From Escherichia phage AV125, in sequence record OR352955.1: a stretch of 64,000 nucleotides of DNA, one strand, 5' to 3'. Below are positions 46,269 through 53,001 of this stretch, piece after piece (positions within the stretch are counted from its first letter, which is position 1; each line of letters opens with the position of its first letter). The translations under genes and the position numbers were made by a program. A model generated the notes under the pieces. It saw only the letters and a program-made list of their open reading frames with translations, made no database searches and was not told the origin of the DNA.

Positions 46269-47084
46269 TTATTTGTTTAAGTGGTCTTCGACCATTTTAA
46301 TGAAACCTTCATTGCTGAAGGCTGTTGCAGCTTTTTCTCGGTAAACAAAAACTCCACGATCTTCATAGAGAAGTGTTTCTTCGTAATTAACTCCAGGGTT
46401 AACTACAACCATTTTTGTACCCATACTAAGTGCAGGAAATAATTCCCAATTAAAATTGATAACTTGGTTTGAACATCCTACTACTACAACCAAATCTTGC
46501 ATGGTCAAAGTATCGAACAAGTGAGCCATATCTGCATACAAAGGTGCAGCCTCACCAAAAAATACAACATTAGGCTTCACCCAGTTATAATCATCTATGT
46601 TTATACTATTGTAACCAATATCTACCAGTGTTTTGTAATCTCCAGGATGCATACGGTAAACTACTTCAGGAAGATATCCGTGTACGTGAATAACAGAATC
46701 TCTGTCTACACCTGCTCGCTCTAGCAGATCATCAACGTTTGTTGTCAAGTTTACTATTTGGTTAGGATATTCCTTAAACCACTTTGCTATTTGAATATGT
46801 GCAGCATTAGGTTGTACATCTTTAAGCTCAACACGTCTTTTGTTATAAAATTCGTGTGTTTTGGCATACAAATCCATACCGTTCTCGTCTACACCACCGA
46901 CCACTGGAAGATCTGGAGATGTTCTAACACGATAACCTGCTTGGAAAGCTCCAATATCGCAGACCTCTTCTAAATCATATTCTTCCCATAAAGCACGACC
47001 ACTATCTGTGTCTGTTCTAAATGTTCGAATCCCACTGTCTGCACTTAAACCTGCACCGCTTACAAAAATCACTCGTCTTGGCAT
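46269..47084 (-). CDS. Sir2-like (sirtuin family) NAD-dependent protein
   Basis: 271 aa; N-terminal FVSGAGLSADSGIRTFR, central HG, FFGE match the sirtuin NAD-binding signature as remembered. Confidence 0.7.
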   Translation of the reverse strand: MPRRVIFVSGAGLSADSGIRTFRTDTDSGRALWEEYDLEEVCDIGAFQAGYRVRTSPDLPVVGGVDENGMDLYAKTHEFYNKRRVELKDVQPNAAHIQIAKWFKEYPNQIVNLTTNVDDLLERAGVDRDSVIHVHGYLPEVVYRMHPGDYKTLVDIGYNSINIDDYNWVKPNVVFFGEAAPLYADMAHLFDTLTMQDLVVVVGCSNQVINFNWELFPALSMGTKMVVVNPGVNYEETLLYEDRGVFVYREKAATAFSNEGFIKMVEDHLNK

Positions 47085-49338: not shown

Positions 49339-50280
49339 TTAATAACCTCCTTCAAAAGGCTTAACTACATGTTGATTAGCTTTAAAACGTTCAACATAGT
49401 CATTTTCGCCCATGTTTTCATATAGCTTAGTAACAACATAAAAGTTTTCCCAAGCATATTCCCTAAACCAACCACTAGTGATGGATGTGCAGACTTTAGA
49501 TAAAGCCATTATAAAACTTTGCTTAGGGGTTGGACCTCCAATCTCTTCACCGAAAGGAATTTGTGAACGTTCCAAAGCCAAAACACACGCTTCTTCATAA
49601 ACACCTAACAGGCGCACATGTTTTGGTTGAGCAAAAAACTTTTCTTTGCTGGTCATAACTTCACTTCCATCTTTCATATAAGATTTATATGCTGGAGCAT
49701 CCATTAACGCGATTGCTTCATGGATAGAATCATGATCATAAACATACGGAACCTCGTCACCTTTAAAGAAGTCTTTACTTTTTACGTTTAAGTTCGGATG
49801 AGAGTAAGTGTATGTTTCTTTCTCACGCAACTCATAAATACTCTTAAGATTTTCTGGGATCTTTGCGCCCAGTGACCGCATGAAATGAATATCTTTCATA
49901 GTTTTAAAGAAATGAGGACTATCCTTTTTAAAACGATGACTCATTTTAAGAAGGTAGAGCACATCTAAAGGAGCAACAACATGTCCAGCGTAAGTTCGAC
50001 GAACATCATCAGAATCTTCACAATAACTAATCAAAGCTTCTGTGCTATCTCCTTGAGAAGCAATATCGTATTCCAAATGTGCACCAGTTATCATTTTGAC
50101 ATGGCCTTTGTTTCCTTTACGTTCTACAAGTTCAACAAACTCCTCTTGAGAGAACATTTTTGATAATTCTTCCCACTCTTGTTCTGTACACAGGTAATCT
50201 AAATCTACACAAGGGCGATACAAGTCTTTTCCCATGTCCATAGCATGAATTTGCAATGCACGGCTACCAATTAACACCAT
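49339..50280 (-). CDS. Pol-beta-superfamily nucleotidyltransferase-like protein
   Basis: 313 aa; N-terminal IGSRALQIHAMDMGKDLYRPCVDLDY fits hG[GS]x9-13DhD with downstream HLEYD acidic residue. Confidence 0.5.
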   Translation of the reverse strand: MVLIGSRALQIHAMDMGKDLYRPCVDLDYLCTEQEWEELSKMFSQEEFVELVERKGNKGHVKMITGAHLEYDIASQGDSTEALISYCEDSDDVRRTYAGHVVAPLDVLYLLKMSHRFKKDSPHFFKTMKDIHFMRSLGAKIPENLKSIYELREKETYTYSHPNLNVKSKDFFKGDEVPYVYDHDSIHEAIALMDAPAYKSYMKDGSEVMTSKEKFFAQPKHVRLLGVYEEACVLALERSQIPFGEEIGGPTPKQSFIMALSKVCTSITSGWFREYAWENFYVVTKLYENMGENDYVERFKANQHVVKPFEGGY

Positions 50281-50310: not shown

Positions 50311-50339
50311 AGTTTATCAAGCTTCCAGATTCCTGTCAA
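50311..50339 (-). promoter_or_regulatory. sigma70-type promoter (minus strand)
   Basis: rc reads TTGACA (50339-50334) - 17 nt - TAAACT (50316-50311). Confidence 0.45.
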
Positions 50340-50340
50340 T

Positions 50341-50362
50341 AAAAAACCCGCCGAAGCGGGTT
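50341..50362 (-). terminator. intrinsic terminator
   Basis: AACCCGC-cgaa-GCGGGTT with T-run on minus strand. Confidence 0.6.
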
Positions 50363-50370
50363 ATTATTTA

Positions 50371-50643
50371 CTAACACATTGAGGAAGAAGAGATCCAAAC
50401 ACCTCTTGTGGTTAAACCATTTTCATCCAACTCTACACCATAATCTTCACAAATGAAATCAATATAGTGATCTGCGGCTGGCGTTCCTGTAGGGTAATAA
50501 GTTTCTCCGTTACCGTAGTCACCTATCCAAGCTTGTTCCTGAAACTGTTCACAAAGTTCTTCAATTTCCTTACGAAACTTTCTTTGTGCTTGTTCCATCT
50601 CTTTAACTTTCTTTTTTATCAGCAGTTCGCCTTCAGACTCCAC
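50371..50643 (-). CDS. paralog family C member 1 (90 aa)
   Basis: C-terminus GVWISSSSMC. Confidence 0.5.
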   Translation of the reverse strand: MESEGELLIKKKVKEMEQAQRKFRKEIEELCEQFQEQAWIGDYGNGETYYPTGTPAADHYIDFICEDYGVELDENGLTTRGVWISSSSMC

Positions 50644-50652
50644 AATCTCTCC

Positions 50653-50871
50653 TTAACAGCTACTACTGTGCCAAACGCCTTGAGAATTAACGACGAAACC
50701 ATCATCACCTTCACCATAACAAGAAGAGGATTGCCAATCTTCAAAACAGATTGCGTCATCTTCTAAACTAAGACCAAAACCAGCATCTTCAGCTTCTTTT
50801 GTAAGTTCGTCCACTAAAGCCATAATAGCTTGGGCTTTTTCAGTTAATTCTTCAACATTACGATAACTCAT
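50653..50871 (-). CDS. paralog family C member 2 (72 aa)
   Basis: Start ATG 50871 (TAATG overlap); C-terminus GVWHSSSC. Confidence 0.45.
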   Translation of the reverse strand: MSYRNVEELTEKAQAIMALVDELTKEAEDAGFGLSLEDDAICFEDWQSSSCYGEGDDGFVVNSQGVWHSSSC

Positions 50872-51179
50872 TAGTATTTCTCCTCTGGTTGGAAAACGGA
50901 ACGACAGGCCCACATAGAAGCTTCTTTCAACTTAGTCTTTGCTATTGAAATTTGGTCAAGGCGGGTGGATATATTGGTAGACTCTTCCAAATCTTCACAA
51001 TCGTCCAGTTCAGCCCACAATTCAGACATTAGAGCATCAAAGATTAATCCTAATCGAACTTCAGCATCTTTAATAGCATTCACTTTACCAATTTTGTCAT
51101 CGGTATGCGGTTTATAACCTTTGATATCTTCGATTCCCACTTTACCTCCTATTAACAACTTAAAGAAGATGGATGCCAA
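50871..51179 (-). CDS. hypothetical protein (102 aa)
   Basis: ORF track. Confidence 0.5.
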   Translation of the reverse strand: MASIFFKLLIGGKVGIEDIKGYKPHTDDKIGKVNAIKDAEVRLGLIFDALMSELWAELDDCEDLEESTNISTRLDQISIAKTKLKEASMWACRSVFQPEEKY

Positions 51180-51349
51180 TTTGTTCCAGTGTTCTCATTT
51201 TCGTCTTCTGGATCATAATAACCACCCATCCCATATTCAGGGGAGAAACGGAAACCTTTACCAGTCTCATCTGCTAACTGCTCTGCTTCCGCTAAAGCCT
51301 CATAAGCTGCTTTTACGGCTTCTTCTACTGTTTTAAACTTGGTCGTCAT
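51152..51349 (-). CDS. paralog family C member 3 (65 aa)
   Basis: C-terminus NWHPSSLSC. Confidence 0.45.
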   Translation of the reverse strand: MTTKFKTVEEAVKAAYEALAEAEQLADETGKGFRFSPEYGMGGYYDPEDENENTGTNWHPSSLSC

Positions 51350-52692: not shown

Positions 52693-53001
52693 TCAACAAG
52701 TAATTTCAAAAGGTGTATAGGGTTCCGTATTTCTCATGATCCAAGGACTGCTAGGATTGCTCGGATCATAAGGGCCAAAAGGTTTTATGGTAGGTTGTGT
52801 TTCTTTCTTCTGAATCTCTTCAAAAATACGACGAAGTTCAGAATATTCTTGATCCACCATAAGATTCGGTGCATCTGATTCTACAGCTTGCAGGTTATCT
52901 TCCTTAAGAACAATCTCACGAACAAGATTAACATCTTCTGTTTCTAAGATAACTTCTTTACGGATATTACCTACACTTTGAATAATTGTAATCTTATACA
53001 T
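52693..53001 (-). CDS. hypothetical protein (102 aa)
   Basis: ORF track. Confidence 0.5.
   Translation of the reverse strand: MYKITIIQSVGNIRKEVILETEDVNLVREIVLKEDNLQAVESDAPNLMVDQEYSELRRIFEEIQKKETQPTIKPFGPYDPSNPSSPWIMRNTEPYTPFEITC

What the first reader, a model, noticed from the sequence alone, without database searches (positions are those of the whole stretch)
50371..51349. Three small acidic proteins ending in a W-x-SSS-C tail (family C)
ORFs at 50371, 50653 and 51152 end GVWISSSSMC, GVWHSSSC and NWHPSSLSC respectively. A conserved extreme C-terminal Trp-Ser-rich-Cys tail on otherwise divergent acidic proteins could be a modification, targeting or degradation signal.
Basis: seen in the sequence. 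Interest (0 to 1): 0.4.

Follow-up and report, generated by a model that had tools for sequence, protein, structure and literature searches.

The report
Cys-tailed phage proteins paired with nucleotidyltransferase
The three small acidic proteins are real members of a very large, unstudied phage protein family that always ends in Trp-x-x-Ser-Ser-x-x-Cys, and whose genes almost always sit just upstream of one conserved nucleotidyltransferase-like enzyme, so the tail is probably how they engage that enzyme.

Summary
Three minus-strand genes of a phAPEC8-like Phapecoctavirus end in GVWISSSSMC, GVWHSSSC and NWHPSSLSC. About 0.002 such ORFs are expected by chance in the window.

They are distant paralogues. 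All three hit phrog_899, and profile comparison still links A to C with the tail removed.

The family is large: 992 clusters at 50% identity. It has no Pfam, NCBIfam or PDB relative, and I found no literature on it. Of 260 members, 255 end exactly in Cys, with near-invariant G-W-x-[PSA]-S-S-x-x-C.

New finding: the genes occur as same-strand arrays of 1-6 paralogues directly upstream of a ~300-aa DUF7277+DUF7275 protein. This holds in 38/41 loci seeded on the small proteins and 72/80 loci seeded on the enzyme (30/33 enzyme lineages). No other neighbour is conserved. In the window this enzyme is at 49339-50280.

Best reading (inferred, untested): the tail is a shared handle for this enzyme, most likely a Ser acceptor tag. 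The main rival is a MenA/MenT-like antitoxin-toxin pair.

An Acb2 (T4 Vs.4) gene is inserted within the array.

The parts
51152..51349 (-). Gene C (65 aa, phAPEC8 gp188 orthologue). Canonical family member: N-terminal helix, F-x-F strand, YGMGGYY loop and strand, acidic loop, tail NWHPSSLSC.
   Evidence: ORF and tail. phrog_899 E 1.2e-12. AF2 pLDDT 86.8 with helix 8-29, strands 33-35, 43-45 and 58-60, and a helical turn 61-64. Family profile hit E 2.8e-28.
50871..51140 (-). Interposed gene, not a family member: Acb2 / T4 Vs.4 homologue (89 aa from GTG), an anti-CBASS cyclic-oligonucleotide sponge. Absent from the same array in a related phage, so it is an insertion into the array.
   Evidence: Pfam PF24729 Acb2/Tad1 hairpin, E 1.9e-19. 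PDB 7UQ2 Vs.4, E 1.6e-42. In L007/L041, C, B and A are contiguous without it.
50653..50871 (-). Gene B (72 aa, gp190 orthologue). Divergent 'B-type' member with two copies of the motif: internal DWQSSSC followed by YGEG, and terminal GVWHSSSC.
   Evidence: phrog_899 E 7e-6. Family HMM E 2.7e-4. The same architecture occurs in T4-like phages VR5, PEi20 and others (..DDWNNSSCYGEE..WQPSSC). hhalign B vs C: 93% with the tail, 50% and E 1.6e-4 without.
50371..50643 (-). Gene A (90 aa from GTG, gp191 orthologue). 'A-type' member: helix, DYGNGETYYP, inserted acidic segment, tail GVWISSSSMC. Last gene of its transcription unit.
   Evidence: phrog_899 E 2.9e-12. hhalign A vs C without the last 10 residues: 97.7%, E 2.5e-12. 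A-type orthologues in Tevenvirinae (DYGNGETYYP..GVWISSSEMC).
50345..50362 (-). Intrinsic-terminator-like hairpin (AACCCGC-TTCG-GCGGGTT followed by TTTTATTG), 9 nt after the stop of gene A.
   Evidence: Also annotated as a terminator in phAPEC8.
50311..50339 (-). Sigma-70-like promoter match (TTGACA, 17 nt spacer, TAAACT, with extended-10 TG) ahead of the nucleotidyltransferase gene.
   Evidence: This is a consensus match only.
49339..50280 (-). Conserved partner gene (313 aa, gp192 orthologue): DUF7277 (residues 1-87) plus DUF7275 (107-297), phrog_2141. Pol-beta nucleotidyltransferase fold closest to MenT toxins. Invariant G5 S6, D26 x D28, E70, K112, H115, K126, R152, Y159, H183 D184, H187, E229 E230, E237 R238, K262, C264, S266, T268 S269 G270, R273.

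Best explanation
A, B and C are diverged paralogues of one phage-restricted family of small acidic alpha/beta proteins. The family is defined by a strictly C-terminal motif, G-W-x-[P/S/A]-S-S-x(0-2)-C-COOH.

The family is the upstream half of a conserved two-part module. One to six tail-bearing paralogues are followed on the same strand by a single MenT-like nucleotidyltransferase (DUF7277+DUF7275; window 49339-50280).

Proposed mechanism: the invariant tail is the common handle by which every paralogue presents itself to the active-site cleft of that enzyme. Most likely it is an acceptor tag, with a Ser hydroxyl (possibly the Cys thiol) receiving a nucleotidyl group. The divergent bodies, conserved as A-, B- and C-types across unrelated phages, would carry different downstream functions, probably in host takeover or counter-defence.

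Shown: the family, the motif statistics, the shared fold elements, the synteny, the enzyme's fold and its conserved catalytic signature.

Inferred: physical interaction, the tail as the contact or acceptor site, and any biological role.
For: 1. Homology. All three hit phrog_899. A-type and C-type profiles align at 97.7%, E 2.5e-12, with the last 10 residues removed.

2. Tail statistics. In 260 members, 255 end in Cys. Among those, W is at -8 in 252, S at -5 in 253, S at -4 in 255, and only P, S or A occur at -6, apart from two members with W there. 177 of the 260 have a single Cys. The profile end coincides with the protein end across the 150 best of 992 clusters. So reactive residues and a free C-terminus are kept while the bodies diverge beyond BLASTP detection.

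3. Synteny.
- 38/41 loci seeded on the small proteins have the enzyme directly downstream on the same strand.
- 72/80 loci and 30/33 lineages seeded on the enzyme have 1-6 tail genes within 3 kb upstream. None is on the opposite strand.
- No other gene family is a conserved neighbour across more than about 5 lineages.
- The module spans Stephanstirmvirinae, several Tevenvirinae genera, Acinetobacter T4-like phages, Pseudomonas Otagovirus, Ralstonia and jumbo phages.

4. Enzyme. The model is confident and its best structural matches are MenT1/3/4 and other pol-beta nucleotidyltransferases. GS, DxD and many other residues are invariant in 81 sequences, and the third acidic residue (E70) is kept in 73 of them. 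That points to an active enzyme with one highly conserved substrate, matching an invariant tail.

5. One enzyme with many paralogues sharing only the tail fits a tag-and-enzyme logic. The A, B and C subtypes recur together in unrelated phages, so each body has its own conserved role.

6. In Brevibacillus phage Sundance, the acidic protein upstream of the enzyme ends in two aromatic-Ser-Ser-Ser repeats without Cys. This points to the Ser pair as the most persistent element. Pol-beta nucleotidyltransferases transfer to hydroxyl groups (general knowledge).
Against: - No direct evidence of binding or modification. I could not run a complex prediction.
- In the AF2 monomer the Trp sits in strand 3 of the fold, so part of the motif may be conserved for folding.
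- In this window a terminator and a promoter-like site separate gene A from the enzyme gene.
- Three to four enzyme lineages have fully intact catalytic residues and no tail gene nearby.
- L003 and L036 have a tail gene with no enzyme gene within 5-6 kb.
- The closest structural relatives of the enzyme act on tRNA 3' ends, not on proteins (PMC10435456).
- The spacing between Ser-Ser and Cys varies from 0 to 2 residues.
Confidence: 0.4

Rival explanations
1. Toxin-antitoxin-like module. The MenT-like nucleotidyltransferase is a toxin or host shut-off enzyme, for example one that modifies tRNA 3' ends. The small acidic proteins are antitoxin-like inhibitors that plug or remodel its active site with their tail, as the short antitoxin MenA1 does for MenT1.
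For: - The best structural matches of the enzyme are the MenT1, MenT3 and MenT4 toxins.
- The gene order, small protein upstream of the nucleotidyltransferase, is that of menA1-menT1.
- MenA1 is a short protein that blocks the active sites of two MenT1 protomers (PMC10435456) and induces autophosphorylation (PMC11375011).
- The small proteins are strongly acidic.
- The doubled motif in B-type proteins could bridge two protomers.
Against: - Up to six divergent paralogues per enzyme, each conserved as an orthologous subtype across distant phages, are not needed for an antitoxin.
- Enzyme lineages with intact catalytic residues lack any nearby tail gene.
- In this window the genes are separated by a terminator, so they are not stoichiometrically co-transcribed.
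- There is no sequence-level match to AbiEii/DUF1814, even at E up to 10, and no PADLOC hit.
- The family is essentially absent from bacterial chromosomes, where TA modules of this kind live.
- The position matching the MenT1 phospho-acceptor T39 is not conserved.
Confidence: 0.25
2. Independent small effectors. The proteins are stand-alone host-takeover or anti-defence binders. Their tail is conserved for their own reasons: fold closure, an intersubunit metal or redox site built from one C-terminal Cys per subunit, or contact with a host target. Linkage to the nucleotidyltransferase would reflect only a shared function or co-regulation, not direct contact.
For: - The proteins are small, acidic, early-region genes in a hyperplastic region of T4-like phages.
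- Acb2/Vs.4 is inserted in the array here, and Acb1 lies two genes away in a jumbo-phage contig.
- Multi-paralogue diversification is typical of arms-race genes.
- Trp is part of the predicted beta-sheet.
- A single Cys per chain in 177/260 members fits an oligomeric site.
Against: - Same-strand, same-order linkage to one enzyme in 30/33 lineages, with no other conserved neighbour, is hard to explain without direct functional coupling.
- Acb2 is absent from the same array in a close relative, so its adjacency looks incidental.
- No known anti-defence family matches.
Confidence: 0.2
3. The tail is a RiPP-like maturation site (Ser dehydration plus Cys addition, lanthionine-like), or a C-terminal degradation or targeting signal read by host machinery.
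For: - A Ser-Ser-x-x-Cys spacing resembles lanthionine-forming motifs (general knowledge).
- B gives a weak, non-significant NCBIfam hit to a class IV lanthipeptide family (E 0.05, 13.5 bits against a cut-off of 25).
Against: - No dehydratase, cyclase, protease or transporter is a conserved neighbour.
- The motif is integrated in a folded domain, not in a leader/core peptide.
- The Ser-to-Cys spacing varies from 0 to 2 residues.
- No known bacterial degron resembles it, and no evidence of any kind supports targeting.
Confidence: 0.05

Closest known systems
MenA1-MenT1 (and MenAT/AbiE, DUF1814) nucleotidyltransferase toxin-antitoxin systems
   Same: The enzyme has a pol-beta nucleotidyltransferase fold, with MenT1, MenT3 and MenT4 as its best structural matches. 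A short protein is encoded immediately upstream of the enzyme gene. The small partner acts at the enzyme's active-site face in MenAT1 (PMC10435456, PMC11375011).
   Different: - No sequence-level DUF1814 signature.
- The phage enzyme has a large, extra, highly conserved helical half with His/Asp/Glu/Cys invariants.
- There are 1-6 paralogous partners with an invariant C-terminal Trp-Ser-Ser-Cys tail, unrelated to MenA1.
- The module lives in virulent phage genomes, not bacterial chromosomes.
- Toxicity and tRNA activity are untested.
Protein-nucleotidylylating pol-beta enzymes with a dedicated small protein substrate: MNT-HEPN (AMPylation of HEPN), GlnD-PII, CitX/MdcG-acyl carrier protein (my own knowledge, not tested here)
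   Same: A pol-beta nucleotidyltransferase is paired with a small protein that it modifies on a hydroxyl side chain. In CitX/MdcG the acceptor is a Ser of a small acidic carrier protein.
   Different: - Acceptors in those systems are internal Tyr or Ser, not an extreme C-terminal Ser-Ser-x-x-Cys motif.
- They have one substrate per enzyme, not arrays of paralogues.
- No prosthetic-group synthesis genes (CitG/MdcB-like) or HEPN domain are nearby.
- Modification is not shown here.
phrog_899 and phrog_2141 (PHROGs families of unknown function); Pfam DUF7277/DUF7275
   Same: The three small proteins match phrog_899. The enzyme matches phrog_2141 and both DUFs above the gathering score.
   Different: These databases give no function, and the searches found no paper naming these families or linking the two.
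Acb2 / T4 Vs.4 and other small phage anti-defence proteins
   Same: Small, acidic, early-region phage proteins. A true Acb2/Vs.4 gene sits inside this array.

Membership tests
Tail-Cys small protein family (phrog_899 and satellites) | Significant match to the family profile | tested here: met
   phrog_899: A 2.9e-12, B 7e-6, C 1.2e-12. Own profile: C 2.8e-28, A 3.6e-9, B 2.7e-4.
Tail-Cys small protein family (phrog_899 and satellites) | Strictly C-terminal W-x-[PSA]-S-S-x(0-2)-C | tested here: met
   WISSSSMC, WHSSSC and WHPSSLSC each lie immediately before the stop codon.
Tail-Cys small protein family (phrog_899 and satellites) | Homology of the body (N-terminal helix, F-x-F strand, YG-x-G-x-YY-P) independent of the tail | tested here: met
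   A vs C with the tail removed: 97.7%, E 2.5e-12. B vs C is only 50%, E 1.6e-4, so this is inconclusive for B alone.
Tail-Cys small protein family (phrog_899 and satellites) | Located upstream of, and on the same strand as, a DUF7277+DUF7275 gene | tested here: met
   The enzyme gene at 49339-50280 starts 90 nt downstream of gene A's stop.
MenAT / AbiE (DUF1814) toxin-antitoxin | Toxin carries the DUF1814/AbiEii sequence signature | tested here: not met
   No Pfam hit other than DUF7275/DUF7277, even at E up to 10. No PADLOC hit. No PDB sequence hit.
MenAT / AbiE (DUF1814) toxin-antitoxin | Pol-beta nucleotidyltransferase fold with G[GS], DxD and a third acidic residue | tested here: met
MenAT / AbiE (DUF1814) toxin-antitoxin | Antitoxin gene upstream and co-transcribed with the toxin | tested here: inconclusive
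   The upstream, same-strand order is general. In this window a terminator-like hairpin and a promoter-like site intervene. The median gap elsewhere is 310 nt, and 26/72 gaps are 100 nt or less.
MenAT / AbiE (DUF1814) toxin-antitoxin | Enzyme is toxic, is neutralised by its partner, and modifies tRNA 3' ends | not testable with these tools
   Needs expression and biochemical assays.
Lanthipeptide / RiPP precursor | Dedicated dehydratase, cyclase or other maturase encoded nearby | tested here: not met
   Clustering neighbours over 33-35 lineages finds only the nucleotidyltransferase as a conserved neighbour.
Lanthipeptide / RiPP precursor | Significant match to a precursor family | tested here: not met
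   Only B hits, at E 0.05 and 13.5 bits against a cut-off of 25.
Acb2/Tad1 cyclic-nucleotide sponges | Match to PF24729 or to solved Acb2/Vs.4 | tested here: not met
   A, B and C give no hit. Only the interposed gene at 50871-51140 matches.
Carrier protein + CitX/MdcG-type holo-synthase | Prosthetic-group precursor synthase (CitG/MdcB-like) in the module | tested here: not met
   No further conserved neighbour.

The most novel reading that the evidence does not exclude
Large virulent phages encode a dedicated protein-tagging chemistry. A MenT-like nucleotidyltransferase covalently modifies (nucleotidylylates) the invariant Ser-Ser-x-x-Cys C-terminal tag shared by a set of up to six small effector proteins, switching them on or arming them. 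This would be a previously undescribed post-translational modification system, present in more than 700 sequenced phage genomes.
Probability: 0.3. Interest if true: 0.85.

Novelty: new variant of a known kind. Interest (0 to 1): 0.62.

Why it matters
The module is common, yet every source calls its genes 'hypothetical'. The enzyme occurs in 714 of 50,697 phage records, including many T4-like, rV5/phAPEC8-like, Acinetobacter, Aeromonas and Pseudomonas phages used in therapy and in research. The small proteins form about 1000 clusters at 50% identity.

Few protein families keep an invariant reactive tail at a free C-terminus. Linkage to a single nucleotidyltransferase turns that curiosity into a directly testable hypothesis about enzyme and substrate, or toxin and antitoxin.

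Either outcome would be new. One is a phage-encoded protein nucleotidylylation tag. The other is a phage-borne MenT-like toxin with a new antitoxin class. Either would also give function to a large block of phage 'dark matter', probably in host takeover or counter-defence.

Tried and rejected
- Pairwise BLASTP among A, B and C: no significant similarity. Profile methods were needed.
- Pfam, NCBIfam, PADLOC and PDB sequence searches of the small proteins: nothing.
- Literature searches found nothing relevant. Terms tried: phrog_899, YGMGGYY, SSQSC, DUF7275/DUF7277/PF23940/PF23942, phAPEC8 with Acb2, AbiEii/DUF1814 with phage-encoded, and C-terminal cysteine with nucleotidyltransferase.
A narrower alignment found one locus in 185,579 species genomes, a 16.6-kb MAG contig that also carries the enzyme gene.
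- N-terminal extensions of longer family members: no informative domains.
- tRNA genes near the module in this window: none. In T4-like and Gordonia phages the module does lie near tRNA clusters.
- I tried to find an isolate genome of the enzyme lineage that lacks tail genes (L045 type), to test genome-wide absence. No close isolate exists.
- The weak lanthipeptide hit for B was rejected as non-significant.
- Acb2 adjacency as a functional clue was rejected as probably incidental, because a close relative lacks it in the same array.

Full report
**Where the window comes from**

The region is 99% identical to Phapecoctavirus genomes (phAPEC8, ESCO37, tuntematon). All genes here are on the minus strand.

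**Checking the observation**

Searches confirm three ORFs with the stated low coordinates and tails.
- A: 50371-50643, 90 aa. It starts at a GTG five bases after an AAGGAG Shine-Dalgarno and ends GVWISSSSMC.
- B: 50653-50871, 72 aa, ending GVWHSSSC.
- C: 51152-51349, 65 aa, ending NWHPSSLSC.

These are phAPEC8 gp191, gp190 and gp188. All are acidic, with pI 4.40, 4.05 and 4.31.

No other ORF of the window has the tail. Composition predicts 0.0018 such ORFs per window.

The three genes are not contiguous. Between C and B lies an 89-aa gene (50871-51140) that is a clear Acb2 / T4 Vs.4 homologue (Pfam PF24729 E 1.9e-19; PDB 7UQ2 E 1.6e-42).

**Are the three related beyond the tail?**

BLASTP sees nothing, but all three hit phrog_899.

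I collected A-type, B-type and C-type sequences from other phages and compared profiles with the last 10 residues cut off.
- A vs C: 97.7% probability, E 2.5e-12, covering the N-terminal helix, the F-x-F strand and the YG-x-G-x-YYP element.
- B vs C: weaker, at 50% and E 1.6e-4 without the tail, and 93% and E 3.4e-7 with it.

**The family**

A profile of 63 sequences found 992 representatives at 50% identity with E of 1e-3 or better, 574 of them at 1e-10 or better. The profile end coincides with the protein end.

In 260 retrieved members:
- 255 end exactly in Cys.
- Among those, W is at -8 in 252, S at -5 in 253, and S at -4 in all 255.
- Apart from two members with W there, position -6 is only P, S or A, and -9 is mostly G.
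- Median length is 77 aa and median pI 4.35.
- 177 have a single Cys.

AlphaFold models C confidently (pLDDT 86.8) as one long helix packed on a three-stranded sheet. The Trp is in strand 3, and Ser-Ser opens a short terminal turn of lower confidence.

A scan of 185,579 bacterial and archaeal species genomes with the core motif found one locus, on a 16.6-kb MAG contig. The family therefore appears essentially phage-restricted, with the caveat that only one narrow motif pattern was scanned.

**The main new result: a conserved partner**

In loci fetched with the small-protein profile, the genes form same-strand arrays of 1-5 adjacent paralogues. In 38 of 41 loci a ~300-aa ORF follows directly downstream.

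That ORF is Pfam DUF7277+DUF7275, phrog_2141. In the window it is 49339-50280 (313 aa, gp192).

The reciprocal test used 80 loci seeded on the enzyme.
- 72 loci have 1-6 tail genes within 3 kb upstream on the same strand.
- 30 of 33 lineages (grouped at 65% identity or more) have them.
- None lies on the opposite strand.
- Some apparent exceptions carry variant tails.

Clustering all neighbours showed that no other gene family is conserved across more than about five lineages.

T4-like phages (VR5, PEi20 and many others) carry five paralogues, including clear A-type and B-type orthologues of the window genes. These lie in the hyperplastic region between gene e and the tRNA genes. The subtypes are therefore old and travel together.

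The enzyme is found in 714 phage records.

**The enzyme**

- The alignment shows invariant G5-S6, D26-x-D28 and E70, the pol-beta nucleotidyltransferase signature. E70 is kept in 73 of the 81 sequences of the wider set.
- Further invariant residues include K112, H115, K126, R152, Y159, H183-D184, H187, E229-E230, E237-R238, K262, C264, S266, T268-S269-G270 and R273.
- The AF2 model is confident (pLDDT 92.6).
- There is no sequence-level DUF1814 match and no PDB sequence hit.
- The C-terminal helical half has no clear structural match.

**Interpretation**

The data show a two-component module. They do not show what it does.

I favour the tail as a shared handle directed at the enzyme's active site, most likely an acceptor tag. 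The reasons are:
- The only thing all paralogues share is a set of reactive residues at a free C-terminus.
- One enzyme serves many paralogues.
- The enzyme's pocket is as invariant as the tail.
- In Brevibacillus phage Sundance, the upstream acidic protein keeps aromatic-Ser-Ser-Ser repeats but no Cys.
- Pol-beta nucleotidyltransferases transfer to hydroxyls (general knowledge).

The main rival is a MenA1/MenT1-like antitoxin-toxin relation (PMC10435456, PMC11375011).
- For it: the structural neighbours of the enzyme and the gene order.
- Against it: the multiplicity and orthology of paralogues, enzyme lineages with intact catalytic residues but no tail genes nearby, the terminator between A and the enzyme gene in this window, and the absence from bacterial chromosomes.

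A third reading treats the proteins as independent effectors with a structural or metal-binding tail. It is weakened by the strength of the synteny.

RiPP-like, degron and targeting readings have no support.

**Novelty and verdict**

The small-protein family and its linkage to the enzyme are, as far as these databases and papers show, undescribed.

The general kind, a pol-beta nucleotidyltransferase with a dedicated small protein partner, is known. I therefore rate this a new variant of a known kind, with a substantial chance (about 0.3) that it is a new protein-tagging chemistry.

Noticed in passing
window 50871-51140 (-): A bona fide Acb2 / T4 Vs.4 homologue (anti-CBASS cyclic-oligonucleotide sponge) is inserted between family genes C and B. 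A related phage (L007/L041) has C, B and A contiguous without it, so the array seems to be an insertion site for accessory anti-defence genes.
   Followed up: partly
window 50653-50871 (-), residues about 44-50 of B; also L005 5718-5951, L006 5280-5519, L072 3697-3951: B-type members carry a second, internal copy of the tail motif (D-W-x-x-S-S-C) immediately before the YGE element. This is conserved from phAPEC8-like to T4-like phages. It is either a duplication or a hint that the tail packs against the YG loop.
   Followed up: partly
L121 3675-3956 (Brevibacillus phage Sundance gp088): Upstream of a full-length DUF7277+DUF7275 enzyme in a Gram-positive phage sits a 93-aa acidic protein ending ..EEYSSSYYEEEEYSSSYYEED. 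It has aromatic-Ser-Ser-Ser twice and no terminal Cys, and may be a divergent analogue of the tail family.
   Followed up: no
L122 4597-4896, L123 4603-4893 and 4890-5360, L124 3411-3707: Shorter enzyme versions (about 250 aa) in Streptomyces, Gordonia and KVP40-like phages have no tail genes. They are flanked by a different ~96-aa protein with a G-Y-Y-D-S-W-E-G-G-like aromatic/Gly motif. It has no Pfam match and may be an alternative partner family.
   Followed up: partly
L003 7014-7475 (438-kb metagenomic contig): A family member lies two genes upstream of an Acb1 (PF23474) gene and has no DUF7275 gene within 6 kb. In another jumbo contig the lone member (L036) and the enzyme (L115) are 30 kb apart.
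   Followed up: no
window 46269-47084 (-); L124 6681-7346: A Sir2-family gene lies about 3 kb downstream of the enzyme gene here. It recurs near the enzyme in about 3 lineages, including KVP40-like phages. The same minus-strand block also holds two DNA methyltransferases, a NinI-like phosphatase and a 'DprA-like' gene.
   Followed up: no
window 52693-53001 (-): A 102-aa ORF also ends in Cys (..PYTPFEITC) but has no Trp/Ser-Ser motif and is not hit by the family profile. This is probably coincidental.
   Followed up: partly
window 50311-50362 (-): A strong terminator-like hairpin followed at once by a TTGACA-17-TAAACT promoter-like site separates the small-protein genes from the enzyme gene in Phapecoctavirus. 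In about a third of the other loci (26 of 72) the genes lie 100 nt or less apart.
   Followed up: partly
L045, L046, L047, L054 (uncultured phages, enzyme about 54% identical to the window's): This lineage keeps the enzyme, with all 31 checked conserved residues, and the downstream methyltransferase, but has no tail gene within 4 kb. No isolate genome was available to check the rest of the genome.
   Followed up: partly
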